DNA of 64,000 nt from assembly GCA_050575255.1 (NCBI GenBank), contig JBNZDD010013634.1, forward strand, positions 1,950,280-2,014,279. The letters are read 5' to 3'. Position 1 is the first letter of the stretch. Every line of letters starts with the position of its first letter. This DNA comes from Harriotta raleighana. Lineage: Eukaryota. The notes under the pieces were generated by a model, which had not been told where the DNA came from, ran no database searches, and was given only the letters and a program-made list of their open reading frames with translations. Both the position numbers and the translations under genes were made by a program. Of the stretch, positions 19,467 through 62,074 are shown piece by piece.

Positions 19467-20390
19467 ATCATAGAATCATAGAAGTTTATGGCCCACCTAG
19501 TCTTTGAAAAGAGCAACTCAATCCCACTGCCCAGCTTTCTCCCCATAACCTAACAGACCTGTTCTCCCTAAATAAACATCTAATTCTCTTTTAAAAGCTG
19601 TTATCGAATCGGCTTCCACCACCTTTTCAGGCAATGCATTCTAGATTCGAACAACCCGCTAAGAGAAAAAAATTCTCAGCTCCCCTCTGCTTCAATTTGA
19701 AACTATTTTAAATCTGTGATCATGAGTCACAGATTCGCCCATCAGTGGAAACAGTTTTTCCTTATTCACCCTGTCATAGAATCATAGAATGTTATGGCAT
19801 AGAAGAAGGCCATTCGGCCCATCGAGTCTGTGCTTTGACAGAGCAATGTCACTTTCATTAACTCCAATCACCATCTTTCTCCCCATAACCCTGCAAACCC
19901 GTCTTCCCCAGATACCTATCCAGTTCTCTCTTAAAAGCTGCTATCAAATCGGACTTCACTATCCTTTCAGGTAGATCATTCCAAATTCGAACAACTCTAA
20001 CTTCCCCTCTGCTTCTTTTTGTAGATACCTTAAGACTGTGACNATAGCTAAGGTTCCCCATTCCTGGAATCATTCTCGTGAATTTCCTCTGCACCCTTTC
20101 CAGTGCCTTAATGTCCTTCCTGAAGTAAGGTGCCCAGAACTGGACGCAGTACTCCAGCTGAGGCCTAACCAGTGTTTTGTATAGATTAACCATAACCTCC
20201 CTACTCTTATACTCTATGCCCCTACTAATAAAGCTCAGTACACCAAATGCCTTTTTTACTGCTTTATCTACCAGCCCTGCTACCTTTAATGATTCGCTTA
20301 CTTGAACACCACTGTCAAATCCACTCATGATTTTAATAACCTCTACTGGTCTCCTCTCAACCTTCTCTGTTCTAAAGAGAATAAAGCTAG
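19467..20390 (-). mobile_element. Two adjacent CR1 LINE 3' fragments with RT C-terminal remnant
   Basis: ORF 19858-20508 contains LYKTLVRPQLEYCVQFWAPYFRKDIKALERVQRKFTRMIPG, typical of CR1 ORF2. Two (ATTCTATG)n tails near 19467-19481 and 19775-19790. Confidence 0.92.
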
Positions 20391-23300
20391 CATAATATAA
20401 TATATGATAATATAATACGATATATAATATACCGTAACACATAATTGGAGTGCTCACCTCGCAAGTGAGTGGACCCGGCTTCAAAGAGTACGCCACAAAG
20501 TGCTTCATGGGATTTACAAATATGCAGTCAAGTCCCTTTACAATATATTCTGTGAAGCACTTTGAGACGTTGATAAGATGTGAAAAGGGCTATATCAAAT
20601 GTAAGAATGATTATTATTAATGCAAAGTGTATCAACAATTTGTTTTAGCTGAATAAGGCAGACAATTTACTCATAACAATGTCTCACAAATCCTTTTGCA
20701 ATTGCCTACAAAATACACAGTCCTGGCACATTACAGCAATTCCTTATGAATCGCTTTGTGACATTTTAGCATTATAGATCTGATATCAAATCAAAGATGA
20801 TTGAATGTTTAATTCCATACTTAGGCGTATCCTGGATTGAAATTTATTTACTTTTGAAGGGGTTTTTAAATCCCTGAAAAAGTGCTCCACCAATTGCCTA
20901 ACAACTGGGTTCCTACTTACTGCTATGTAAGCAGCGACATGTGGAGTAAGGAAACTTGCCTAAGGTTGCACCCTGGCCGGGAATCGAACCCAGGTGAGCG
21001 CTCTAACTATGTTACAGGAATTCAGTTCCCAAACAATGCTTTCCAGTATTGATTGATTATAAGCTGTACTGCTGGAATTTTCCAGTCCAACGAATGAACA
21101 TTGGGGTTTTGATAAAAAGCACATTTTTTGCATAGGTAAGCACTGATATGGAATAGAATTTATTTAAGACCTTTTCAGCAGCTGCGTTTAACTCAACCCA
21201 GAGGTTTGATGTCTTGATTAAAGCCACTACAGTATTCTAAGGCATCAGACTTGCAGATTCCGCAAGGTCAGCTGAGGGCAGCCAGTTCTGCCTCCCACTC
21301 TTGAAGCACCTTCCACCCATTGCCTCTCCCACCCACAACACCTTTTTTTGGAAAAAAAACACAGCTTTTTTCTTTCTTGTCTTTGCGTAACACAGGGCAA
21401 ATTACGCAAGGAATTTTTTTCCTTTTCAGCAGTTTTAAAAAGAAACAGCTCCGGTAACCTGTCGGGTTTCACTTGCACCATCAGTTTAGTGTCAAGTTGC
21501 AAATGAGAAAAGTTTCAGCAAGGGTTGAACTTTCCAGGCGGATGTAAGATTTGGGATGCCTGGACATGTTTTTCAATATAAGGAATCGAGGTAATGGATC
21601 CTGCCGTTCACACAGACATCATCTGTGAGGTTTCTCTTCATTTCTGTTTCTTAGGATTGCAGATGAATCAGTATTTTGAGAAAATTGCCTGTTCTCAGAA
21701 AAACATTCTCTGATCCTTCAATGTTGAACATAATGTGATTTGGGGGTTGAACATTAGTAAGACAGCCAATTCCTTGATAAACATCCCTATAATCTGAGAC
21801 TTTCACTGAAAACATACTTATGAATTCAATCCACTTTACAATAAATTCCGTGGATCGCTTTGAAATGTCTCCCCCCAAAGGCACTGCACCAAATACAAGG
21901 ATTATTATTGTTAAGTGTTCATGTCACCAGCATGGACTGGCTTGGCCGAACGGCTTGTTTCCATGCTGTATGTCTGCAACTCAATGTTTAAATAGCCGAG
22001 GATGCTGAATTAGTGGAGAACAGTGATTAGTGGAGAACAAAGTTTAAAGCACCTCAGAACATTCCGCTGAAGACTTAGATGATAATAATCCTTGCATTTG
22101 ATATAGCACTTTTCACATCTTGAAGACTTCACAGAATATAGATGCTTCAGGCCATCCTCCCAATGTGAAAGGGGCTAACAAATGTAATTTGTTATTGTTA
22201 GGCACAGCGCAGAATGCTTGAGGTTAACTAAGAAAGAATAATTGTAAATTAGATGACGTTCGTATTTAAAATAACACAAAAATGGGCTGCATGTTTCCAA
22301 CAAAGCCTCCCCTTACGATGGGGTCTAATATACACCAATTTCTAACAGCATTTCTTTATGAGCATTCCAAGTGCAAACTCCTTCCAATAAACAGAATTAC
22401 GTCACATTGACCCATAGAAACTCTGTTCATGAAGTAAATTGTGTTAAACCAGATTTTCTGCAAATCAACATGGTGCACTTTTGAGTTTCCTTCCTAAGGA
22501 AATCCATCAGAAATCGTCATATACAGTATTAACTCCACTGTCACCCTTCAGACTGGTTACATAGCCTCAAGTGGTTTGCAAGTCTGAACACTCCAGACTA
22601 GACCCCTTCAAGGAAGGATCAGGTTACCTAAAGCTATTTCTTTTCTTCTGATGAAAGTCAAAGCCAACGGCAACTGGCACTGATTGACTGGGAGACTGGG
22701 AGATTCCAATATACCTTGTGTCTAGCGCTTGACTGCCAATGTGCCTCTACAAACCATGAACTAACTCGAAAGCAATATCCTGAAACATTCGAAGTGGAGT
22801 GGAATTTACGGGCTGCCAGGCAAACTATTGGATTGCCACAGGGTCGCTAACTGAGAACAGGAGGTTCTGGGGCAAATATTTGTTCAGATACTGTACAATC
22901 TCGGTGCATTTCTGCTCCGGCTCAACTGCAGTGTTATTTCTTCGACTATCACCAAATCAAATATAACTTTCCCTTTATAACAAGGTTTTGAAACTAATCT
23001 GTTGTGGAAACTAGACTGTGTTTAACTCCCTTTATGAACATGAAGCAAAAAAATCACTAGGGTTATAATAATCCCTACATGTGATACACTGCCTTTTATG
23101 TCATCTTAAAGTGCTTGTCAAGTAAATGCTGTGACTATGTACACAAGCAGAGAATCCCATTTGCACACAGCAAGGTCTCACAAACACCCATGAAGTGAAA
23201 GACAAATGTATCTAAATAAAAATAATCCTTCCATTTGATATAGTGCCTTATTATATCTTTACGATGTCTCAAAGCACTTCATAGCAACGCTTGTGTTGTA

Positions 23301-50819: not shown

Positions 50820-51076
50820 TTGATTCCAGATAGAGCGAGTTTCCTTACTCCATATGCCTGATAATAATCCCTCCAGAGAGAAAATAAAACGATAATAAAA
50901 TTGGTCATTTCAATCCACAGCTGTTTGTGGGGACACTGCTGAGCGCAATCGGCTGGCGCGTTTCGCCCACAAATACACAGTCAAATTCACTTTCCAGCAT
51001 ATTCCATGAAGCGCTTTGAGACGTCTCAAAGACCTGAAAAGCGCTATATCAGATGCAAGGATTATTATTATTATTA
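50820..51076 (+). mobile_element. SINE, same family, CpG-intact (young-looking), directly beside the promoter
   Basis: Body gcgcaatcggctggcgcgtttcgcccac and tail gcaaggattattattattatt. Confidence 0.85.
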
Positions 51077-51099: not shown

Positions 51100-51300
51100 A
51101 ACCAGTGACTCAGGTGGGAAGCTGCTTCTGCGTCTGCGCGGCTTTGACCTCGCCGATGCACTCTGGGTATTGTAGTTCGGGTTGGGCGCTGACTCAATGC
51201 CAACCAGAGGACACGAGCAGACTACAGCTCCCGAGACACCCCGCGGCACAGACCCAGCGCAACATTGTAGCTAATCGCGGAAGCAAGAGCAACATTGAAT
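51100..51300. promoter_or_regulatory. CpG-enriched promoter with two divergent ZNF143/THAP11-type (ACTACAnnTCCC) motifs; likely AKIP1 promoter, possibly bidirectional
   Basis: ACTACAATACCCAGAGTGCA on - strand (51157-51176), ACTACAGCTCCCGAGACACC on + strand (51221-51240), TGACTCA near 51106 and 51190, ETS core CGGAAG near 51278, local CpG excess. Confidence 0.7.
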
Positions 51301-51527
51301 GAACAACTGGAGTCAGAAGTTCTGAAGTTCTTCAGCTTTTCACTGGGACAAGTCAGGAGAGTCAATTGCTCAAATTAAGTTTTAAAAAATTATCCAGAGG
51401 AAGAAAGAGCTGGGAGTGGAGCCGGCTACAGACCCTCTCCCTCCCACGCCACCCCTCCCCCCTACACCCCGCCACCCCCAAGGAAGAAATTCAAACCCAC
51501 AATTTGAGAAGGAAATGCTACAGCTGT
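51280..51527 (+). other. AKIP1: Candidate non-coding exon 1 of AKIP1 (5' end approximate)
   Basis: Lies downstream of the promoter motifs, with donor TGT|gtaagt at 51528. An upstream exon is required by the acceptor in front of the ATG. Confidence 0.35.
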
Positions 51528-51871
51528 GTAAGTGAATGACTTGAATGTCAAATACCAAGTTTATGATGTCAAGGGACTTGCTTTGTAAATTGCAAACCCA
51601 TTTAAAATACGGTCCTGTCTAAAGATCTTTCATCTTCCTCGTAATCAAGAGAAAAAGCGAAAACAAAAAGTAATTTTGAGTCCCGAGTGTTTTAATTTGT
51701 TTTGTTAATTGTTTTGATTTGCATTTGTTAAGTCTGGAGCTGGGGTGGTGGAGAGAGAGTGACAGTAAAACGCGGCGACTTTATTGTGAAAATAAAACGC
51801 AAAATACTGCAGATGTTGGAATTCTGAAACAAGAACAGAAGTCTCTGGGAACACTCTCAACAGGTCAGACA

Positions 51872-52105
51872 AGCAAGTTTCCTTACTCCACACGTCTAAT
51901 AATAGTCCCTCAAAAACAAAACAATAATAAAATGTTTATTTCAATCCACGACTGTTTGTGGGACGCTGCTGTGCTCAATCGGCTGGCGTGTTTCTCCCTC
52001 AAAATATACAGTCAATTCACTTTACGGTATATTCTGTGAAGCGCTTTGAGACGTTTTAAAGACGTGATAAGGCGCTATATCAAATGCAAGGATTAGTAAT
52101 ATTAC
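51872..52105 (+). mobile_element. 5'-truncated SINE, same family, inserted into an older repeat (51790-51871 and 52122-52196)
   Basis: SINE body and tail; the flanks appear to join into one - strand element. Confidence 0.8.
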
Positions 52106-52488
52106 ATTTATTACTGTGTAATATCGATGAAGAAAGGAAAGTGAGTCCATGTTTCAGGTCCACGACCCTCAGAACCCTTCGTCATGACTTCTGACCATAT
52201 ATCAGTCACATTTATATATTAAAAAAAACATGGTTCTAAAAAGTGAAGCTGGCTGACAGAAGAACAGACTCTCTCCTGTTCATACTTCTCTGATTGTGTA
52301 GATACATGAATGGAAACCAGATTAAATTTAATTGCACTTTGGAGCAATTTGCCTTTAATTTTAATTAGCTGAATGGTCCGATAAAGAATAATGTTATGCT
52401 GTGTATTACGTATTTTTGTTTGAAAGACAGAAAAACGCAATGGATATTTACAATTATTCTGCTGTCTCTCTCAGCAGGGTGAACAAAC

Positions 52489-52671
52489 ATGGACAATGAG
52501 AGCAGCCACATTGAATATTCTTTGAAATGCTCAGCGCAACTCGGGCTTGAAGTGCTGAGGCGCGCTCAGCAGAGACAAACACGTTGGTCTGTTGGTGATC
52601 CGTCATGTTCTACAACAGTTGGCGCAGAATCTTCAGCGGTGCGAGATGAGACGGCGGGACAAGCGGCAGAG
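52489..52671 (+). CDS. AKIP1: AKIP1 short (canonical-length) form of first coding exon, 61 codons, putative donor GAG|gtattt
   Basis: Phase-0 GT at 52672 is compatible with the phase-0 acceptor at 58886 and gives a length close to the human exon. An alternative phase-0 donor is AAG|gtagtg at 52720. Both donors are weak, so the exact site is uncertain. Confidence 0.55.
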
Positions 52672-55600
52672 GTATTTCCAGTAGCTACGTTTGTGAAAGA
52701 AGAAGCACCAGCACATAAGGTAGTGAGACATGGAGGGACACCTCCAGCACCTACACGTGACATGGGCAGAGCAAGAGGGCCAAGTTATACCCGTACACAA
52801 GACATGCTCAGATCAAGAGGTCCAAAACCCACACCTACACGTGAGATGGTCGGACCAAGAAGTCCACGTCCAGTCTCTACGCGTGACTTGGTCAGACCAA
52901 GAAGGCCAAGTCCAGCCTCTACACGTGACTTGGTCGGACCGAGAGGTCCAAGTCCAGTCTCTACACATGACTTGGTCACACTAAGAGGGCCAAGTCCAGC
53001 CTCTACACGTGACACTGTCAGACCGAGAGGTCCAAGTCCAGCCTCTATACGTGATACGGTCAGATTACGAGGGCCGAGTCCCGCATTTACACGTGACACG
53101 GTCAGGCCACGAGGGCCAAGTCCCGCCCCTACACGTGACATGGTCAGACCAAGAGAGCCAAGTCCCGCCCTTACACGTGTCGCGGTCAGGCCAAGAGAGC
53201 CAAGTCCCGCCTCTACACGTGACGTGGTCAGACCAAGAGAGCCAAGTCCCGCCCCTACACGTGACGCGGTCAGACCAAGAGAGCCAAGTCCCGCCCCTAC
53301 ACGTGACGCAGTCAGACCAAGAGAGCCAAGTCCCGCCCCTACACGTGACGCAGTCAGACCAAGAGAGCCAAGTCCCGCCTCTACACGTGACGCAGTCAGA
53401 CCAAGAGAGCCAAGTCCCGCCCCTACCTACCAGATGGTCAGACAAAGCAGGGCAAGTACAGCACCTGTGTATCAGATGGCCCAACAAAGCAGGACATATA
53501 CAGCACCCACACCTGATTTGGGCATGAGAGAAGGGACATTTTTGATACCCAGACAGGAGGTACTGATATCAGGATTGGTGGGACAAGCAGGGCCATATCA
53601 AGCACCAAAACCTTTTTTTGGAAGAGAAGCATGGACAGGTCCATTACCTCAGGAAGTGGTAAGGGAAGGTGGGACGGGTCCCGCACCTCGACAAGAGGTA
53701 CTGAGACAAGTAGTGCCATATCAAGTACTAAAACGAGTGGTGGTAACACAACCAGTAAGATTTGCAGGGATGCAACCAGTAAGAGGGGTTCCACTACCTG
53801 TACATGAGGTAATGAGGCCTGGATTAATGAGACCTGGAATGATGATAAATGAAGGATCTTGGCATTCCACAAAATACCCAGTCAGTAGAGAAGCCCCAAA
53901 ACATCCATTGTTGAGGCAAGGAGCTCCAAACCCACCACCAAAACAAGGGTCTATACAAGAAACACTTCTATTGCGAGATGAACCTAGCCGTGCTATACTC
54001 AGAAATGGAGCAATGAATGAGACGGTGACAAATGAACCAATAGATAAGGTGGCACTGGGTGAACCAAGGCTTGAGATGTTTAGGGATGAACCAAGATATC
54101 AGGTTTTGAGAGATGATCCAAAACATGAATTAATGAGACATCAATCAAGAAATGAGGTGTTGAAAGATGAACCAAAACATGGGGAGGGAAGAGAAGCAAA
54201 GACGATTCAACCACATGAACCCAAGGTTCCAATAGAAGAAATGACGTGTCCAACACACAATCATGACATGGTGACTGAAAAAAAAGCTTTTGAAGCACAT
54301 AAGAATCAGGTAGTCAAAAAAACAGGAAAATATCCAACCCTTACCCATGAGGTGGTGCCTGAGGTAAAGAGCTGTTTAGTACATAAACGTGAAGAGGACA
54401 CAGAAACACAGAGATGTCAAGCACATCAACGTGAAGTGATGCCAGAAGCAGGCAAATGTCCAAGGCATCACCGTGAAGGGATAATAAAAGCAGGGAAATG
54501 TCCAACACATAACCGTGAGATGGTGACAGAGACAGAGACCTATGCAGCACATAAACGTGAAACGGTAACAGATACAGAGAAGTGTCCCAAACATAACCGG
54601 GAGCTGGTAATAGAAGCAGGGAGATGTTTGGCACATAAACGTGAGGTGGTGACTGAAACAGGGAGCTGTTTGGCACATGAAGTTATGGAAGAAGCAAATA
54701 AGTATCCAGCACATAAAGCTGAGATTGTGGAAGAAGCAAAGGGATCTTCAACGCATAACCATGAGGTGGTGACAGAAGCAGAAACATCTCTAAGTTATCG
54801 TGAACCAATGACTGAAGCAGACCTTTTTCCAACATATAAACCTGAGGTTGTGACCGATAAAGAGATCTCTCCAATATATGAGATAGTGACAGAAGTAGAG
54901 ACCTCTCCAATACACAAAGCTGAAGTTGTGATCAAGCAAGAAATATATCTAAAACATAAACCTGAGATGGTAACAGAAGTGGAGATATATCCAAAAGATG
55001 AACCTGAAGTTGTGACCAATCAAGAAATAACTCCAATACCACATGAACCTGGGGTTTTGATCGATCAAGTGATATCTTCAGCATCTGAACCTGAGATGAT
55101 GGCAGATAAAGAGGCATATCCAACACGTGAACCTGAAATAGTGACAGAAGCAATATCCTCAGCATATGAACCTGACGTTGTGATCGATAAAGAGACATCT
55201 CCAACACAAAAATTGGAGATGGTTACAGAACTGGATACAGGCCCGACAAGTAAAACTGAGGTGGTCACAGAAGCAAAGACATCTCCAATACAAAAATCTG
55301 AGATAATGACTGAAGAGACTAGTCCCACACATAAATGTGAAGTGGTGATGGAAAAAGAGACCTCTCCAACACAAAATCCTGAGGCGGTGACTGAAGAGAC
55401 ATGCCCTATGCATACACCTCAGCCTGTGATCAAAGGGACATGTTCTGCACATGAAGCAGAATTGGTGATAAACAAGACCTATTCAACGTATACACCTGAG
55501 CCTGTGATCAAAGAGACATACTCTTCACATGAACCTGAGTTGGGGATCAAAGACACATGTCCTATGCATAAATCCGAGCCTGTGATCAAAGAGACATGTT

Positions 55601-58173
55601 CTGCACATGAACCAGAATTGGTGATAAACGAAACCTACTCAATGTATACACCTGAACCTGTGATCAAAGAGACATACTCTGCACATGAACCTGAGTTGGG
55701 GATCAAAGAGACATGTTCTTTGCATCAACCTGAACTTGTGATCAAAGGGACATGTTCTGCACACGAACCTGAGTTGGGGATCAAAGAGACATGTTCTTTC
55801 CATCAACCTGAACCTGTGATCAAAGGGACATGTTCTGCTCATGAACCTGAGTTAGTGATAAAAGGGATGTCTTCTGTACATAAACCTGAACTGGAGGCAA
55901 ACCTAGAGACATCTCTAGCAGACAAACCTGAGGTGGTAACAGATGAGACATCTCCCACACATGAACCTAAACAGGTGGTCATCGATGAACAGGCATTTCC
56001 AACACATGAACCCGAGATGGTGACAGATGAAGACATATCTCCAGCACACACACCTGAGGTGGTGACAGAAGAATACACATTTCCATCACACACACCTGAG
56101 GTGGTGACAAATGAAGAAATATTTCCAATACACAAGCCTGAGGTGGTGACAGAAGAAGACTTATTTCCACCACACACACCGGAGGTGGTGACCGATGGAG
56201 AGATATTTCCAATACACAAGCCTGAGGTGGTGACAGGTGTAGACACATCTCAAACAACTAAACCTAAAACAGGATTAGATCCGCCAAAACATTTGGTGGT
56301 AAGAAAGATACCAAAAGATACGTTGGCCACAGAAGGGCCAGTATCAAAAAATGTGGCAAGAGGAACAAAAACAAAAAATACACTGGAGGCACAAGCAACA
56401 ATGAAAGTGGTGAGAGGGCAATCACCAATGTATGCTAAAGGAGAAAGGATACAAAAATATGCATTAAGACTTCCATTACCAAAAACTGAAATTGGAGGAC
56501 AAGTGGTGAGTAATGTGATGAGAGGGCCATCACCAAAATGTACAGTGAGAGGGCAAGCTCCAAAATTTCCAGTGAGAGGACCATCACCAAAAACTGGAGT
56601 AGAGGGACAAGTGGTCAATAAGGTATTGAGAGCACCATCACTGAAACCTGGAGAAGACGGACAAGTGATGAGTAATGTAGTGAGAGAGCCATCAGCCAAA
56701 TCTGGAGTAGATGGACAAGTGGTGAATAATGTAGTGGGAGCACCATCATCAAAACCTGAAGAAGCAGGAAAAGTGGTGAGTAATGTAGTGAGACCACCAT
56801 CACCAAAACCTGGAGTGGGAGGACACACATCAAAATATGGAGTGAAGGGACCGTCACCAAAACTTGCAGGCAGAGGACAAGTGGCAGATAACGCAGTGAG
56901 GGGAACATCACCAAAAAATTTAGTGAGAGGACAATCACCAAAAAGTACAATGGTGAAAGAAGTACTTAAACCTGACATTGGAGGAAAAGCACCAACACAT
57001 CTGGGGAAAACAGACACAGTTATCCACTCAGAACTGATAAATGCACTAAAACAAGCTGAACTGAGAGATGCACAACAACATGCAGAGCTGAGAGAGCTGA
57101 GAGAAGCGTTGAAACAGGCAACTGAGAGAGATGTACCAAAATATGAGATGGAAAGACAAGCACCAAAACGTGCTGAAGAGAAAGAAGTGGCTAAAATTCC
57201 AATCGCGGAAGAAGCACCAAAGAAAGCGGTGGTCACAGAAGTGCCTAAACCTGTGTTGGGAGAAGCACTAAGACATCCAGTGTTGAGATATGGAACAAAA
57301 CCACTTAAGGTGTCTAAACCACCAGTGAGTGAAGCAACAAAACATGTGCTGGTGAGAGATGAGCCCAAATCACCATTGGTAAGAGATGTGCCCAAATCAC
57401 CATTGGTGAGAGATGAGCCCAAATCACCATTGGTGAGAGATGAATCTAAGCCATTAGTGGGAGACACATCAACAGAAGGAGTGATGAGAAATGAGTCAAA
57501 ATATGTGGTCGGAGTAGAAGAGATGCAGTCACATCCATCATCTGAACATAGGGCAGAGATGGTTCCAGCACATAAACATTCTGTAATGACCGAAGCAGAG
57601 ATATGTCAAGCACTCAGATATGGTTTCATAACAGAAGCAGATATCTACTCAGCCCATAAACATGGTTTGATAACAGACACAGTGATATGTTCGGGACATA
57701 AACATGGTTTGGTGAAAGAAGCCACAATACATCCACCATCAGAACATAATGTTGTGATAGAACCAGAAGAGACAAATCCGGTATCAGAAGATGAAGTAAT
57801 GGGTCAAGAGGAGACATTTCCACCATCAGAAGATGAGATGATAAGGCAACAAGAGATACAACCACCATCAGAAGAAGGAGTGATAGGGCGAGAAGAGATG
57901 GAACCATCATCAATTGATGAGGTGCTGGGACTAAAAGAGTCACGTCCACCATCAGAACATGAGTTGCTGGGACAAAAAGAGTCACTTCCACCACCTAAGG
58001 TGTTAGGACAAAGAAAGGTGACATATTCTACTCCAGAATATGAGGTTTTAAGACGGGAAAAGATCTATTCAGCACCGGAGGATGAGGTGATAGGACAAGA
58101 TAATAAATACATACTTAGAAATAAATATGCTTTAGGTTTAAAAGAGAGAGGAAATGTCTATGTTGGGAATTAA
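52489..58173 (+). CDS. AKIP1: AKIP1 first coding exon continuing as a 1894-aa uninterrupted ORF (AKIP1 N-terminus plus giant tandem-repeat extension)
   Basis: Acceptor tctctctcag/cag (NAGNAG, 52472-52477) and strong Kozak aacATGG at 52489. N-terminus SLKCSAQLGLEVLRRAQQRQTRW matches human AKIP1 SLQRSARLALEVLERAKRRAVDW (recalled). Stop-free for 5685 nt, all repeat units are multiples of 3, and no SINE insertions are seen. Confidence 0.85.
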   Translation: MDNESSHIEYSLKCSAQLGLEVLRRAQQRQTRWSVGDPSCSTTVGAESSAVRDETAGQAAEVFPVATFVKEEAPAHKVVRHGGTPPAPTRDMGRARGPSYTRTQDMLRSRGPKPTPTREMVGPRSPRPVSTRDLVRPRRPSPASTRDLVGPRGPSPVSTHDLVTLRGPSPASTRDTVRPRGPSPASIRDTVRLRGPSPAFTRDTVRPRGPSPAPTRDMVRPREPSPALTRVAVRPREPSPASTRDVVRPREPSPAPTRDAVRPREPSPAPTRDAVRPREPSPAPTRDAVRPREPSPASTRDAVRPREPSPAPTYQMVRQSRASTAPVYQMAQQSRTYTAPTPDLGMREGTFLIPRQEVLISGLVGQAGPYQAPKPFFGREAWTGPLPQEVVREGGTGPAPRQEVLRQVVPYQVLKRVVVTQPVRFAGMQPVRGVPLPVHEVMRPGLMRPGMMINEGSWHSTKYPVSREAPKHPLLRQGAPNPPPKQGSIQETLLLRDEPSRAILRNGAMNETVTNEPIDKVALGEPRLEMFRDEPRYQVLRDDPKHELMRHQSRNEVLKDEPKHGEGREAKTIQPHEPKVPIEEMTCPTHNHDMVTEKKAFEAHKNQVVKKTGKYPTLTHEVVPEVKSCLVHKREEDTETQRCQAHQREVMPEAGKCPRHHREGIIKAGKCPTHNREMVTETETYAAHKRETVTDTEKCPKHNRELVIEAGRCLAHKREVVTETGSCLAHEVMEEANKYPAHKAEIVEEAKGSSTHNHEVVTEAETSLSYREPMTEADLFPTYKPEVVTDKEISPIYEIVTEVETSPIHKAEVVIKQEIYLKHKPEMVTEVEIYPKDEPEVVTNQEITPIPHEPGVLIDQVISSASEPEMMADKEAYPTREPEIVTEAISSAYEPDVVIDKETSPTQKLEMVTELDTGPTSKTEVVTEAKTSPIQKSEIMTEETSPTHKCEVVMEKETSPTQNPEAVTEETCPMHTPQPVIKGTCSAHEAELVINKTYSTYTPEPVIKETYSSHEPELGIKDTCPMHKSEPVIKETCSAHEPELVINETYSMYTPEPVIKETYSAHEPELGIKETCSLHQPELVIKGTCSAHEPELGIKETCSFHQPEPVIKGTCSAHEPELVIKGMSSVHKPELEANLETSLADKPEVVTDETSPTHEPKQVVIDEQAFPTHEPEMVTDEDISPAHTPEVVTEEYTFPSHTPEVVTNEEIFPIHKPEVVTEEDLFPPHTPEVVTDGEIFPIHKPEVVTGVDTSQTTKPKTGLDPPKHLVVRKIPKDTLATEGPVSKNVARGTKTKNTLEAQATMKVVRGQSPMYAKGERIQKYALRLPLPKTEIGGQVVSNVMRGPSPKCTVRGQAPKFPVRGPSPKTGVEGQVVNKVLRAPSLKPGEDGQVMSNVVREPSAKSGVDGQVVNNVVGAPSSKPEEAGKVVSNVVRPPSPKPGVGGHTSKYGVKGPSPKLAGRGQVADNAVRGTSPKNLVRGQSPKSTMVKEVLKPDIGGKAPTHLGKTDTVIHSELINALKQAELRDAQQHAELRELREALKQATERDVPKYEMERQAPKRAEEKEVAKIPIAEEAPKKAVVTEVPKPVLGEALRHPVLRYGTKPLKVSKPPVSEATKHVLVRDEPKSPLVRDVPKSPLVRDEPKSPLVRDESKPLVGDTSTEGVMRNESKYVVGVEEMQSHPSSEHRAEMVPAHKHSVMTEAEICQALRYGFITEADIYSAHKHGLITDTVICSGHKHGLVKEATIHPPSEHNVVIEPEETNPVSEDEVMGQEETFPPSEDEMIRQQEIQPPSEEGVIGREEMEPSSIDEVLGLKESRPPSEHELLGQKESLPPPKVLGQRKVTYSTPEYEVLRREKIYSAPEDEVIGQDNKYILRNKYALGLKERGNVYVGN
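52730..53440 (+). repeat. 42-bp coding minisatellite, about 17 units (PSPAPTRDAVRPRE)
   Basis: Unit ccaagtcccgcccctacacgtgacgcagtcagaccaagagag, near-identical over 53140-53430. Confidence 0.95.
55395..55890 (+). repeat. 39-bp coding minisatellite (ETCSAHEPELVIK)
   Basis: Recurring gtgatcaaagagacatgttctgcacatgaacctga. Confidence 0.9.
57349..57460 (+). repeat. 27-bp coding repeat (LVRDEPKSP) x about 4
   Basis: ggtgagagatgagcccaaatcaccatt units. Confidence 0.9.
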
Positions 58174-58885
58174 ACTAGGATTCAATAGTGCAGTTTGGGA
58201 GGGCGGGGGCGAGATGGTTATTTGATTATGTTTGGGGGTACAAGGGAAAACCTAGTCAATGCACTATATCCTAAGTCAATGGACCCCACTAGCTCCTCTG
58301 AAAATCACGGTCTACTTTGAGTATATTTTATTTACATTCTGTTTTCATGTGGAATTGATCATTGATAGATTAAAATCCCAAACTGACTAACGAAAGCACC
58401 TCACTAAAAATACAAAAGTCAGCCTGTCTTTGACTATACATAATAGTGAGGAAACACTGAACTTCCCCCAGATTGTGTTGAATGATATAGAACACACAAA
58501 AAAAATTCTATCTGAGGAAGGAATGGACTTGAATGACTTTTCTCAGTAATGTACTATGTTGTACTCTGTGATGCTGCCCCTTGTGAAGGGCACTCTGTAA
58601 ATGCAAGCTGCTTTTGCGTTATGTATTTATTTGCTGTATAACTTTAGTATTGGTTAATTTTACTAAATTATTTTAATTCTACTCCATACCTCTCACTAAT
58701 AATATGATATTTGATAAATTGTTTGATGAATACTTTTTTGGGGAAATTGAAATGTTTGACTGTAACTTGCTGACGAACAAGCACATGTCAGGGAGTTAGC
58801 TCCCTGGCCAGTTTCTTAATGGCTCTGAACACTTAATTGTGAAGCTGCATAAGGGCCTCTAATAGTTTATTTCTTTTTTTGACAG

Positions 58886-58957
58886 GGTAAAAAAATCTTT
58901 GATGAAGCGTTTGCTTCAATGCTGCAGTTCATGGCTCAAACAACCAAACTGTGCCAG
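58886..58957 (+). CDS. AKIP1: AKIP1 internal exon (GKKIFDEAFASMLQFMAQTTKLCQ)
   Basis: Acceptor ttctttttttgacag, donor CAG|gtgagt, 72 nt, phase 0/0. Resembles human SASFRTMAEFMDYTSSQCG. Confidence 0.92.
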
Positions 58958-59263
58958 GTGAGTCTTGCAGTTACCAGCATCGGTACAGTATTAGCCACAT
59001 TTATTTGTTGACCAAATGCTTAAATTGTCATTACATGTACTCTGTCCTGAATCGGTGCAGGTACAGACTAGAGGCATGGTGTGGCAGAGACTATATAGAT
59101 TATATTTTAAATTGATCAACTGTAGGAGCTGGTGACAGGATTGCAACAGCAGAGTGCACTGCCTCCAGTGAGTTGGATGTGATTGATATGTTAATACAGT
59201 ACATGTGCTTGCTGTAATAATCACAACCCTTACTGCAGTATTCCTGTACCTTTCATTTTACAG

Positions 59264-59374
59264 CGGTACTGTGACAACTTGCCAGCTTCAAGTCGAAGCA
59301 AGTGGGAGGAAAATCATATTCGTAGGTACCATATGGATGAGTTTGCTCCATCTGTGAGACCGTCCAGACAGCCT
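59264..59374 (+). CDS. AKIP1: AKIP1 internal exon copy a (RYCDNLPASSRSKWEENHIRRYHMDEFAPSVRPSRQP)
   Basis: Acceptor tttcattttacag, donor CCT|gtgagt, 111 nt, phase 0/0. HIRRYH resembles human HVYRYH. Confidence 0.88.
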
Positions 59375-59993
59375 GTGAGTAACCGTTGGGGAAGCATTAT
59401 GGTCTGGGAAGCGAGCAGAAATGAACTCTGTGCTGTCACTGTGCTAATTCAACCTGTAAGTGCCTTTATGTTTAAAAAAAAATGCCAGATGTAAAAAAAA
59501 ACATACTTACACATTATCATATCTTGGGATTAATTCTTGCCTTAATTCATCATCTCAAAATACACAAACCAGTATCACCACCTGTACTTCAAAACTGAGC
59601 GAAATGTTTATTGGACAATGAAAGATCGCACAGTGTGGCAGAGCCAGGTCCAGCTAAATTAACAAAAAAAAACAGGTGAACAAACAATGGCTTATTGCCC
59701 TTGTTCGAGGCAGGAGGCCAAGTGGATTGCTGGAAAGACAGGCGGTACAGGAGATATGGCTCGTACTCTGTTTCTGTCATTCACCCGAGCTGCCTCCTGC
59801 AGCCTGTTGTGTCTGCGTGATGAGTGACAACAAGAAATTATATTAGGATGAGCCAACTAGGAGAGCTGGAGAAGAATTGAAACACCAGAGTCTTCTGGTG
59901 AGCTGGATGTGAATGATGTGTTAATATAGTACATGCGTATGCTATAATAATTACAACCCTTACTGAAATAATCCTGTACCTCTCATTTTACAG

Positions 59994-60098
59994 CAGTACC
60001 TTAACAGCAAACCAGCTTCTAGTCAAAGCAAGTGGGAGGAAAACCATATTCGTCAGTACCAAATGCGTGAGACTGCTCCATCAGTATCCAGACAGCCT
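59994..60098 (+). CDS. AKIP1: AKIP1 internal exon copy b, tandem duplicate (QYLNSKPASSQSKWEENHIRQYQMRETAPSVSRQP)
   Basis: Acceptor ctcattttacag, donor CCT|gtgagt, 105 nt, phase 0/0, open frame. Paralogous to 59264-59374 including intronic flanks. Confidence 0.72.
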
Positions 60099-60345
60099 GT
60101 GAGTAACATATGGGATGGTGTTATGGTCTGGATAGAGAGCAGAAACCAACTCTGCTGTCATTATGCTTACTTTATCCATTGCAAATGGAATAAATTATTC
60201 TTATTCTTATTGGTATTTATATGCTGAGGGAAAAGAAAATAGCACTTTACAGAATGTACGAGAAAGGGAATTGGGGCGAAACTAAGGGTCCAATAGCCTG
60301 CCTTTGGTGATCATCTCTCTCTTTCTCTATCTTTGCAACAAACAG

Positions 60346-60489
60346 ATTAATTGCACTGAGGAGATTCACATTGAAGTGGCTCCTGGCTCTTACAAGGTCA
60401 CAGCAAGCTCGAAACAATCTGACAGACAGCAGACACACGTGATAAATCTCAGGCCAGGCCAGACCATCGACCTTACCTTTACAACATGA
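60346..60489 (+). CDS. AKIP1: AKIP1 last coding exon ([47 protein letters not shown])
   Basis: Pyrimidine tract followed by aacag acceptor. Resembles the human C-terminus LYIEVYPGTYSVTVGS...THVVAVDSGQSVDLVF. TGA at 60487-60489. Confidence 0.93.
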
Positions 60490-60523
60490 AGTGTGCATGG
60501 TACAGTGGTGATGGGCATGTGGC

Positions 60524-60529
60524 AATAAA
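60524..60529 (+). terminator. Polyadenylation signal AATAAA for AKIP1 (a second one at 61011-61016)
   Basis: Canonical hexamer 35 nt after the stop codon. Confidence 0.55.
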
Positions 60530-62074
60530 ACTGTTTCAAAGGGGCTCAGTGTCCATTGCAATATTAATCTCAGGCACTTCGTGAAACTAATCACTGTTTC
60601 TGTATGCACTGTAAGTTTTACAAAAAAACAGGTTTGACGAGTCAATACTACCATAATGTGTTTTGATTAGGAGAATGTCATTTTTAAAAGATTTTCACAG
60701 ACGTTAAGCTTTTTTCTTTTGTATCATCCTATCTACACTTTACCTCATTTGAATTTGGAGAAAGTACAGATTTCATGCACAAAAACTATGCTTCAGGTGA
60801 AGATGTGATTTGTGAGATAATGCGATTTTTAAAAATGTCCTTCCTTGATGACCTTCCTTGATGGATTAAAAAAAGGATGTTAACAAGAAGCCAGAGTAGC
60901 AATGTTGAATCTATTGATTTTGCTGTCACTCTAAAGTATGAATTTTAATGCTTTCCCCTTTGGAGTGTGCCTGTGTATGTGTGTGTGTGTGTGCCTTATA
61001 TCATTGGAATGAATAAATTAACGATTTACTACTTTGTAGTTTTGACTTATGGATCTTGAAATGAGTAGACCGCTATTCAGGTGGTATGTATAGCTGGTAA
61101 TAGGAAGAAGCTATTGTCTTCATTCTGATCGAGTCTGTATTTGCCCTCTTATTGCCTTGGCTCTTTTATGAATCTCTGGTGATATGGAATTCATTGATTT
61201 CCCTCCCTCCTGTTATTTATTAATCTGTATTAAATAGTTCCCTAATCTTCCACTCTCTGTGAATGGAATCAATCAATTCTCAAAATTCATTGCTGGATGT
61301 TGTCTTATTCCAGGTTGTTCTGGAACTCAAATATGGTAAAAAAAAATCAATGCAGTGTCTTGTTTGCACATGGCATCACTTGGGAGAAAGATTTCTCAAT
61401 CCGATGTTGGTTCATGAAAATATTAATTGTCATCTAAATGAATCTGGGAAAGTGCCATTTTAAATAAGTAGAATGAACAGAAACAAAGTCTGTAATGATG
61501 ACTCAATTTTATTGAGAGTTATTTGTTTTCCTATATAATAAATAATGGTACTGTAACATGTGATGAGTAAAATTAAACAAGATGTTTTTAAGCACCAGGT
61601 TTAATTTATTTAGAGGAGAGTTTTGACAGTTCATATTTCAATATTTCAATCGCACAACTCCAATCAAATTTGCAAATTCTACAAAAAAAGGTTTGAACAG
61701 AACAGAACCAGTTTGAAAACTATTACTTTTTAGAAAATTTTAAAAATATGTATTCCTTGTCATGATAGGCTATAGCCTTCAAATTACACCCTGGAGGGAT
61801 TTCCGTTTGTAATGATTTTTAATGAGCTTCCCCTGGTAGCATCTAGAGGTAGAAAGGTAACTGAGGGGAGAATAATAGTTAATATGTTTAACTCTCAAAA
61901 TCTAACGAGGAGTGGGATCTTGCAAATCTTTGATGAGGACCTTAAACCATATTTACAAATATTAATGGGTTCTTAATGTTGGATATTAATTTTCAGTCAT
62001 TCCTCATTTCTCTCCCCCCCCCCACCACCCCCCACCACACCACCACTGCCACCCAACACAAATCACCGCACCTG

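What the first reader, a model, noticed from the sequence alone, without database searches (positions are those of the whole stretch)
52672..58260. Isoform switch: weak proximal donor, many in-frame distal donors, and a poly(A) hexamer overlapping the stop
Seen: the canonical-length donors (GAG|gtattt 52672, AAG|gtagtg 52720) are weak. Val codons in the repeats create stronger phase-0 donor-like sites: GTG|gtgagt 56506 and 56776, CCA|gtgagt 57325, TTG|gtaaga 57379, and GAG|gtgata 58087. All are in phase with the 58886 acceptor. ATTAAA (58169-58174) overlaps the TAA and is followed by a G/GT-rich tract. Inference: three product classes are possible, namely short AKIP1, giant AKIP1 retaining the C-terminal domain with variable spacer length, and an intronically polyadenylated giant form lacking the conserved C-terminus.
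Basis: partly seen in the sequence, partly recalled or inferred. Interest (0 to 1): 0.72.

Follow-up and report, generated by a model that had tools for sequence, protein, structure and literature searches.

The report
Giant repeat extension of chimaera AKIP1
In a chimaera-like fish, the first coding exon of the small signalling-adaptor gene AKIP1 runs on without a stop through 1,833 repeat-built codons, so the gene likely makes a giant, mostly unstructured protein as well as the normal short one, while the many extra splice sites proposed inside that stretch look like a by-product of its valine codons and were not tested on RNA.

Summary
All listed motifs are at the stated places. The gene is the single AKIP1 of a chimaera-like fish. 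The predicted elephant shark protein joins donor 52672 to acceptor 58886, so the 'weak' donor is the ordinary one (204-aa product). Behind it lies a stop-free 1,833-codon extension grown from one 42-nt unit (0 stops against 157 and 159 in the other frames). It is very likely coding. The 'many in-frame distal donors' are not special. Their number matches synonymous shuffles (P 0.05-0.35). They are mostly Val-Arg/Val-Ser codon pairs. The two best survive in 2 of 6 repeat copies. The frame stays open 264-555 codons past four of the five. Only 58087 could close the exon. Two giant forms remain open. One is a 1,894-aa form ending at ATTAAA 58169, whose downstream G+T content beats all 161 background hexamers, though 9.5% of TAA triplets overlap such a hexamer by chance. 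The other is a 2,009-aa form spliced at 58087; the last 28 codons look intron-like. No RNA run was listed and no giant homologue was found. The scan had no earlier AKIP1 note. Both mechanisms are known; a giant AKIP1 was not found in print.

The parts
52478..52671 (+). AKIP1 first coding exon (acceptor at 52478 inferred, NAGNAG alternative 52475; ATG 52489; 61 codons)
   Evidence: 46 of 61 residues identical to C. milii P0001; acceptor candidates
52672..52677 (+). Proximal phase-0 donor GAG|gtattt, the junction of the orthologous predicted protein; lowest-scoring of the gene's four coding donors
   Evidence: junction; scores
52672..58173 (+). In-frame extension: 1,833 codons plus TAA; rich in Pro, Glu, Val, Thr; built from a 42-nt (14-aa) unit and 27/39/54-nt units; whole ORF 52489-58173 = 1,894 aa, 209.5 kDa
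   Evidence: 0 stops vs 157 and 159 in the other + frames; 21 of 21 tandem-repeat rows have periods divisible by 3 vs 2 of 14 outside; 61 of 63 self-alignment offsets in frame; mass
52720..52725 (+). Second proximal donor-like site AAG|gtagtg; not used in the orthologue model
56506..57384 (+). Four listed donor-like sites (56506, 56776, 57325, 57379) inside the coding repeats; read as codon by-products (latent or cryptic sites)
58087..58092 (+). Donor-like site GAG|gtgata, 28 codons before the stop; the only listed distal site that could close a 5,609-nt internal exon (predicted 2,009-aa protein)
   Evidence: run-off P 0.23; rank 17 of 182; tail composition
58102..58125 (+).
58169..58245 (+). 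Candidate intronic poly(A) site: ATTAAA over the TAA, CA at 58191 (16 nt downstream), G/T-rich tract
   Evidence: G+T 0.75, reached by 0 of 161 background hexamers; GU/U-rich triplet count reached by 42%; CA position
58886..58957 (+). AKIP1 second coding exon (24 codons, phase 0-0)
   Evidence: 17 of 24 identical to P0001
59264..59374 (+). AKIP1 third coding exon, first copy of a tandemly duplicated exon (37 codons)
59994..60098 (+). Second copy of the duplicated exon (35 codons); also present in the C. milii protein
60346..60529 (+). AKIP1 last coding exon (47 codons, TGA at 60487-60489) and AATAAA at 60524
   Evidence: 44 of 47 identical to P0001; hexamer

Best explanation
The first coding exon of this fish's only AKIP1 gene continues in frame past its normal splice donor (52672) through 1,833 stop-free repeat codons, so the gene likely makes two main products: the ordinary 204-residue AKIP1 when that donor is used, and, when it is skipped, a predicted 1,894-residue, largely disordered protein that would end at an intronic poly(A) site right behind its stop codon. 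SHOWN from sequence and tools: the gene's identity, the short form's junctions in the orthologous predicted protein, the open frame, its growth from a 42-nt unit in whole codons, and that the internal donor-like sites match a synonymous null. INFERRED: that the extension is translated (about 0.85); that the internal sites are latent by-products of Val-Arg/Val-Ser codon pairs rather than a selected ladder (about 0.8); that the giant transcript ends at ATTAAA 58169 rather than splicing at 58087 (roughly 60:40). By analogy with the human peptide mapping (PMC3083391), the giant form would keep the N-terminal exon, where one PKA-catalytic-subunit contact was mapped. It would lose the exons homologous to the p65-binding motif and to the main C-terminal PKA contact. 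It would thus be a different protein, a long Pro/Glu-rich, Ser/Thr-Pro-rich scaffold with an AKIP1 head, and making it would cost short AKIP1. Tissue and regulation are unknown.
For: Orthologue junction and exon match. AKIP1 family PF27911. DUF4537 and bHLH genes downstream, the recalled human order AKIP1-C11orf16-ASCL3. One N-terminal match in the genome. Coding signal: 0 of 1,833 stops vs 157 and 159; 835 codons outside tandem arrays also stop-free (P 6e-20); repeat periods all divisible by 3 (21 of 21 overlapping rows vs 2 of 14); 61 of 63 offsets in frame; about 250 inter-unit substitutions without a stop (P 4e-4). Donor null; loss in 4 of 6 repeat copies and long run-on. Poly(A): hexamer within 30 nt of a stop triplet in 7.5% of background cases, downstream G+T above all 161 background hexamers; CA 16 nt downstream. 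The 14-aa register seems to run on to the stop (P 0.01-0.02 against codon shuffles). Composite terminal exons are the commoner class of intronic polyadenylation in human (1,648 of 2,675; 80% with AAUAAA/AUUAAA; PMC5928244, passages read).
Against: The 28 codons after 58087 look less coding than any part of the body. Their GC is 0.286, below all 64 body windows. Their codon log-odds is -0.28, reached by 0 of 60 body windows and exceeded by 15.6% of 595 non-coding windows. At DNA level the tail shows no clear in-frame match to the body (best 23 vs 21 and 22; 21 vs 20 and 19 of 42). Two AATAAA lie before the stop and would risk stop-less mRNA. The G+T window was chosen after seeing the sequence; the tract is G-rich rather than U-rich (triplet count unremarkable), and no UGUA lies between 57582 and 58550. 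Amino-acid constraint in the repeats is weak (pN 0.230, pS 0.285; ratios 0.34-1.52 over seven arrays). Donor-like sites do exceed codon-order shuffles at low thresholds, and the top two are borderline against the synonymous null (P 0.053). The only C. milii records returned encode the short form, and no giant homologue was found. In human desmoplakin the real distal donor scores below internal ones (PMC2896628), so the low score of 58087 does not exclude it.
Confidence: 0.42

Rival explanations
1. The giant form is an internal 5,609-nt exon closed by one distal donor at 58087 (or 58018). It gives a roughly 2,000-residue AKIP1 that keeps all C-terminal exons, with the repeats as a spacer between the N-terminal and C-terminal halves. 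The last 28 codons are decayed intron, and the hexamers are chance or are held silent by U1 bound at that donor.
For: Phase 0 and in frame with 58886. A run-off of 28 codons is unremarkable (P 0.23; 58018: P 0.07). Codon and GC make-up falls to intron-like values after 58087. Two AATAAA before the stop fit an intron better than a coding end. The C-terminal exon is the best conserved part (44 of 47). Desmoplakin precedent of a weak but real distal donor (PMC2896628, passages read).
Against: Ranks only 17 of 182 in-frame GTs. The fall in coding score is gradual from about 58003, not a step (0.38, 0.16, -0.22, -0.35 per 14 codons). The site sits inside a repeat unit whose register seems to continue past it. 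The ATTAAA and top-ranked G+T tract must then be chance. G-runs start 78-110 nt after it, against 13 nt after two of the three real downstream donors (none after the third).
Confidence: 0.28
2. One reading: several internal donors (56506, 56776, 57325, 57379, 58087) are used in a regulated way, giving giant AKIP1 forms of 1,482-2,009 residues with different spacer lengths.
For: All are in frame. 56506 and 56776 are the two best-scoring GTs of the ORF and pair well with U1 (-10.8 kcal/mol). No in-frame stop precedes them, and removing such stops has been reported to activate latent donors (PMC1524910, abstract read). Desmoplakin uses three in-frame donors in one exon (PMC2896628). Low-level cryptic use is likely even on my best reading.
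Against: No enrichment over synonymous shuffles. GTGAGT is present at 2 of 6 equivalent repeat positions and the GT itself is lost at 2. Unlisted sites score as well. The frame stays open far beyond four of them. Cryptic sites in ultra-long exons are described as decoys held down by RBMX-family proteins (PMC11446547, passages read).
Confidence: 0.08
3. The giant protein comes from simple retention of the whole intron 52672-58885, with the normal 3' end at 60524 and no intronic poly(A) site.
For: Gives the same 1,894-aa product. Stops in exons longer than 407 nt are described as partly escaping nonsense-mediated decay (PMC11544006, passages read).
Against: The stop would lie 785 nt before an exon junction with three junctions downstream; the same paper finds the long-exon rule adds only marginal predictive power and that downstream exon count matters most. 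It leaves the hexamer and G+T tract unexplained.
Confidence: 0.08
4. The extension is not, or is no longer, translated: an intronic repeat array, a recent relic or an assembly artefact, with only short AKIP1 made.
For: No giant homologue in five protein searches. Weak amino-acid constraint. Only short C. milii models were returned.
Against: A satellite would not keep 835 non-array codons stop-free and all periods divisible by 3 while its oldest copies diverged to 44-60% identity. Both probed parts of the extension match only this locus in the genome. The AKIP1 exons lie in the right order on both sides, and no N falls in the ORF.
Confidence: 0.12

Closest known systems
AKIP1 (A-kinase-interacting protein 1; Pfam PF27911); C. 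milii XP_007885750.1 (P0001) and UniRef100_A0A4W3JS26 (P0002)
   Same: Five coding exons match exon by exon; same junction at 52672 to 58886; same duplicated internal exon.
   Different: The records are 202 and 208 aa and the three Atlas clusters shown are 156-170 aa; none has the 1,833-codon extension. Human isoforms 1A, 1B and 1C are short exon-skipping forms of at most 210 aa (PMC3083391, passages read; 1B lacks exon 3).
Composite terminal exons from intronic polyadenylation (IGHM secreted form as the classic case; PMC5928244, passages read)
   Same: A donor is ignored, the exon reads on to an intronic AAUAAA/AUUAAA, and downstream coding exons are lost.
   Different: Here the read-through would add 1,833 codons, nine times the length of the parent protein, rather than truncate it; no 3'-end data here.
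Desmoplakin exon 23: DSPI, DSPIa, DSPII (PMC2896628, passages read)
   Same: Several in-frame donors in one long exon share one acceptor and set the length of a central spacer; the true distal donor scores low.
   Different: DSP forms are shown by RT-PCR, ESTs and protein, and span 599 aa of coiled coil. Here the spacer is a disordered repeat of 1,833 aa and the internal donors show no sign of selection.
Ultra-long exons with cryptic splice sites repressed by RBMX/RBMXL2 (PMC11446547, passages read)
   Same: An exon of more than 1 kb that is purine-rich and holds many decoy donors.
   Different: Shown in mammals for internal exons; no binding or knock-down data here.
skNAC (NACA with a spliced-in proline-rich exon; seen only as a reference title and figure legend in PMC10340688); BRCA1 full-length versus delta-11q (recalled, from no call)
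   Same: A small or short form and a giant form of one gene, differing by one multi-kb, low-complexity coding stretch.
   Different: skNAC uses a separate cassette exon, whereas here the stretch directly continues the first coding exon; unrelated sequences.

Membership tests
AKIP1 (PF27911) | Sequence homology across the AKIP1 coding exons | tested here: met
   Exon-wise identity to P0001; P0001 carries PF27911 and its nearest Atlas clusters are AKIP1 at 0.95-0.96. The local Pfam copy gave no AKIP1 hit.
AKIP1 (PF27911) | Orthologous neighbourhood (C11orf16 and ASCL3 downstream; order recalled) | tested here: met
   DUF4537 hits in L004 and an HLH hit in L005, minus strand, in 66 frames scanned. 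DENND2B upstream was not identified.
AKIP1 (PF27911) | Binding to the PKA catalytic subunit and p65 | not tested
   Only the human mapping was read (PMC3083391); the duplicated exons resemble the p65 motif quoted there.
Composite terminal exon / intronic polyadenylation | AAUAAA or AUUAAA in the intron at or after the in-frame stop | tested here: met
   ATTAAA 58169 and 58369; chance of at least one in a 717-nt stretch is 0.66, of overlap with a TAA 0.095.
Composite terminal exon / intronic polyadenylation | Downstream GU/U-rich element and upstream UGUA | tested here: inconclusive
   G+T 0.75, above all 161 background hexamers; GU/U triplets average; no nearby UGUA.
Composite terminal exon / intronic polyadenylation | Coding character maintained up to the stop | tested here: inconclusive
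   Protein register P 0.01-0.02 versus intron-like codon and GC make-up of the last 28 codons.
Composite terminal exon / intronic polyadenylation | Mapped polyadenylated 3' ends and read-through coverage | not testable with these tools
   No RNA holder was listed.
Desmoplakin-type alternative 5' donor series | Several donor-like sites in frame with one acceptor | tested here: met
   trivially so, as 181 of 294 GTs are phase 0.
Desmoplakin-type alternative 5' donor series | Sites in excess of, or kept beyond, what the protein code gives | tested here: not met
   Synonymous null P 0.053-0.35; 2 of 6 repeat copies.
Desmoplakin-type alternative 5' donor series | A distal donor that closes the coding stretch | tested here: inconclusive
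   58087 fits but ranks 17 of 182.
Desmoplakin-type alternative 5' donor series | Junction reads for each donor | not testable with these tools
   No RNA holder was listed.

The most novel reading that the evidence does not exclude
An old, chimaera-grown 5.5-kb repeat exon turns a 204-residue PKA/NF-kB adaptor into a regulated family of giants: a tailless 1,894-residue form and full-length forms of 1,482-2,009 residues. In these, latent donors born from the repeats' own Val-Arg/Val-Ser codons tune the distance between the N-terminal PKA contact and the doubled p65-type motif. Because every coding intron of the gene is phase 0, the repeat would supply both the spacer and its own length control.
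Probability: 0.1. Interest if true: 0.72.

Novelty: new variant of a known kind. Interest (0 to 1): 0.42.

Why it matters
If reads confirm it, a gene known only as a 200-residue adaptor of PKA and NF-kB has a hidden form nine to ten times larger in a slowly evolving vertebrate lineage, absent from the protein records returned here. It would be a clear case of an exon lengthened by in-frame repeat growth right behind a weak donor, the route proposed for adding disordered regions (PMC9825244, passages read). It also gives a method lesson: in Val-rich repeat exons, phase-0 donor-like sites arise by default and are no evidence of alternative splicing. The splicing and polyadenylation mechanisms themselves are standard, which limits the interest.

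Tried and rejected
RNA: one search for sequencing runs (kind rna, window 52400-60550) listed no RNA holder; this is no evidence either way, and no reads could be laid. Homologues of the giant form: word-index searches with the whole ORF (1041-3315 aa, 7,982 candidates scored, none at E<=0.001), the first 80 aa (1 hit of 227 candidates, the short C. milii protein) and the last exon (1 of 9). HMMER over 1.84 billion representatives with residues 1-1200 gave 71 hits. P0001 matches the N-terminus; none of the other 70 matches any of three AKIP1 segments at E<0.1. Ten of them were looked up: three named records are uncharacterised invertebrate repeat proteins, a fourth is a Hydra low-complexity protein, one is a shark protein named collagen-like, and the rest are unnamed or carry only a gene id or 'hypothetical'. 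I read these as composition matches. These searches did not even return shark short AKIP1s, so they are insensitive and do not show absence. The ESM Atlas gave no usable hit for the extension. Pfam: no family for the ORF. Depletion of poly(A) hexamers in the ORF body (1 vs 6.3 expected, P 0.0025) was rejected as evidence: 3.5 of the 6.3 come from one array of related copies, and AATAAA ranks only 29 of 797 hexamers. dN/dS between repeat units gave only weak constraint. A separate acceptor defining the extension as its own exon: best candidate 53434 of 154 has 13 pyrimidines but only 3 T, against 6-13 T at the five real acceptors, and the frame is continuous with the first exon; not favoured. 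A mobile or multi-copy origin: two probes matched only this locus. MaxEntScan and SpliceAI are not available; the weight matrix uses recalled human frequencies and ignores position dependence, so it may under-score AG|GTA-type donors such as 52672. No structure or complex was predicted: no alignment depth, and no binding claim rests on it. Papers: searches for AKIP1+isoform+splice (30 papers, 20 listed), akip1+shark (1), akip1+zebrafish+fish+exon (15 listed) and giant exon+elephant shark+isoform (0) showed no giant AKIP1. No supplements were read.
Full report
What the locus is. The finding lies in a 1,896-codon stop-to-stop frame, 52483-58173, with its ATG at 52489. Its first 80 residues found one relative among 227 candidates, the Callorhinchus milii 'A-kinase-interacting protein 1-like' prediction P0001 (202 aa, PF27911). 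Its nearest Atlas clusters are AKIP1. P0001 maps on five window exons: 52489-52671 (46 of 61 identical), 58886-58957 (17 of 24), 59264-59374 (28; 37 vs 35 aa), 59994-60098 (29 of 35) and 60346-60486 (44 of 47). All junctions are phase 0 and the short product is 204 aa. A second record, P0002, has the same junctions. Both are predictions; I did not see their RNA support. Downstream on the minus strand lie DUF4537 and HLH matches, the recalled human order AKIP1, C11orf16, ASCL3. The N-terminus matches once in the 1.1-Gb genome. The animal is a chimaera-like cartilaginous fish, from this similarity and from earlier scan notes on the same genome.

Observation check. Donor 52672 is the one the orthologous protein uses, so it is the ordinary donor; 52720 would insert 16 residues that the orthologue lacks. 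On a weight matrix from recalled human frequencies and on duplex energy with this genome's U1, 52672 is the weakest of the gene's four coding donors (0.76 and -5.8 kcal/mol, against 8.23, 2.78, 2.78 and -12.2, -7.1, -7.1), and all five distal sites outscore it. Neither measure is MaxEntScan, and a simple matrix may under-score AG|GTA sites (own knowledge).

The extension is very likely coding. From 52672 to the stop there are 1,833 codons with no stop, against 157 and 159 in the other two forward frames and 30-74 in the reverse frames. 835 of these codons lie outside any tandem array (P 6e-20 at the window's 5.2% stop rate). All 21 Tandem Repeats Finder rows inside have periods divisible by 3, against 2 of 14 outside; the rows overlap and are not independent. 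61 of 63 self-alignments are offset in frame. Four arrays spread over the ORF share one 42-nt unit at 44-60% identity in an in-frame register, against about 26% at other shifts. Amino-acid constraint is weak (pN 0.230, pS 0.285 over seven arrays), as expected for a spacer whose frame and make-up matter more than its sequence. The product would be 1,894 aa, 209.5 kDa, with 43 Ser/Thr-Pro sites, no transmembrane-like stretch (highest 19-residue hydropathy 0.74) and 76% of windows below the FoldIndex disorder line. Internal clock (inference): the intronic flanks of the duplicated exon, which C. milii shares, are still 76-79% identical, so repeat copies at 44-60% probably predate the split from C. 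milii, unless the arrays evolve faster or the flanks were homogenised.

The many distal donors are a by-product. Val is 9.9% of the extension, so 181 of 294 GTs are phase 0. With the protein and codon usage fixed, 300 shuffles give as many donor-like sites as observed at five thresholds (P 0.11, 0.10, 0.35, 0.19, 0.053). Shuffling codon order gives fewer at the two lowest thresholds (0 of 300; P 0.027), so the surplus comes from amino-acid order: 19 of 32 sites are Val-Arg or Val-Ser, and Arg is mostly AGA. Density is 2.7 per kb at score 2.5 or more, against 1.6 in the rest of the window and 2.0 on the ORF's own antisense strand. The two best sites, 56506 and 56776, are the same position of a 54-nt repeat; 4 of the 6 equivalent positions lack the motif and 2 have lost the GT. 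Four unlisted sites outscore two listed ones. The frame stays open 555, 465, 282 and 264 codons past the first four listed sites, so none is the sole end of the exon. They may be used at low level: they are in frame and no stop precedes them (PMC1524910, abstract), and long exons are known to hold cryptic sites that need repression (PMC11446547, passages). Nothing shows selection for them.

How the giant transcript ends is open. For an intronic poly(A) end: ATTAAA overlaps the stop (9.5% of TAA triplets by chance; a hexamer within 30 nt follows 7.5% of 5,564 stop triplets); the 40 nt from +15 are 75% G+T, more than after any of 161 background hexamers; and the 14-aa register seems to continue to the stop (P 0.023 and 0.010 in 20,000 codon shuffles). 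A CA lies 16 nt downstream. Against: the GU/U triplet count is average, no UGUA is near, and two AATAAA lie before the stop. For splicing at 58087: only 28 open codons follow (P 0.23), and they are intron-like, with GC 0.286, below all 64 body windows, and a codon score below all 60 body windows but above 84% of 595 non-coding windows. They show no clear in-frame DNA match to the body. Against: the decline is gradual from about 58003 and the site ranks 17 of 182, although desmoplakin shows that a true distal donor can score low (PMC2896628, passages). I put the terminal form at about 0.42, the internal giant exon at 0.28, the regulated ladder at 0.08, full retention at 0.08 (nonsense-mediated decay expected; PMC11544006, passages) and 'not translated' at 0.12. 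The first two may coexist.

Likely consequence. In human AKIP1A, PKA-C bound an N-terminal cluster and one in exons 5-6, and p65 bound a 12-mer in exon 4 (PMC3083391, passages). The chimaera's duplicated exons resemble that 12-mer. A terminal giant would keep only the N-terminal exon; an internal giant would keep everything but hold the halves about 1,800 disordered residues apart. Both are inference by homology; no binding was tested.

Comparison and novelty. It is an AKIP1 orthologue. It would work like a composite terminal exon (PMC5928244, passages) or like desmoplakin exon 23, but membership in either class needs RNA, and the enrichment test for a donor series was not met. No giant AKIP1 appeared in five protein searches (low sensitivity) or four paper searches. 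The scan's index holds no note with the word akip1 and no look-alike of P0001, and nothing near this place; two notes describe analogous read-through or giant terminal exons in other genes, unchecked here. No RNA holder was listed, which says nothing about expression.

Verdict. A real and striking hidden coding extension with an ordinary short form. The donor ladder is mostly chance, the poly(A) site is plausible but unproven, and a single distal donor at 58087 is a strong rival. New variant of a known kind; interest 0.42.

Noticed in passing
window 59086-59463 and 59823-60188: Tandem duplication (286 of 361 bases identical) of the AKIP1 exon that resembles the human p65-binding 12-mer quoted in PMC3083391; both copies are in the C. 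milii protein, so chimaera AKIP1 may carry the motif twice.
   Followed up: partly
window 52489-60489: All four coding introns of this AKIP1 are phase 0, so any internal exon can be skipped and any phase-0 donor stays in frame.
   Followed up: yes
window 54247-55840 and near 57690: 17 of the ORF's 22 cysteines sit in C-x-x-H motifs, mostly at 13-14 residue spacing; Cys alternates with Tyr between copies, so metal binding is doubtful.
   Followed up: partly
window 58102 and 58120: Two canonical AATAAA before the stop; if used they would cut the mRNA upstream of the TAA unless the poly(A) tail itself completes a stop codon. Unexplained.
   Followed up: partly
window 52480-52488: An in-frame TGA lies two codons before the ATG, so the 6-residue N-terminal extension of the C. 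milii UniRef model P0002 cannot be read in frame here.
   Followed up: partly
window 51150-51540: CpG-richer stretch with several ACTACA-type motifs (recalled as ZNF143-type promoter elements) and a GTAAGT near 51529; probable promoter and non-coding first exon of AKIP1. Not tested.
   Followed up: no
L004 8584-8811, 6303-6548, 5653-5991, 4484-5236 (minus strand): The C11orf16-like gene has DUF4537 exons preceded by a weak VWA match (E 0.004, below cut-off) and followed by a 251-codon open frame; it may be a longer, VWA-bearing form.
   Followed up: no
window 56250-57605 (minus) and 52785-53568 (other frames): Long open frames antisense or shifted over the repeats (451, 213, 180, 167 aa); read as shadows of the repeat codon usage.
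   Followed up: no
window 19858-20589 (minus): 243-codon frame resembling the end of a CR1/L2-type retroelement ORF2 (recalled resemblance; no Pfam hit).
   Followed up: partly
window 50820-51070 and 51870-52100: Two similar interspersed-repeat copies flank the probable AKIP1 promoter (seen; not aligned).
   Followed up: no
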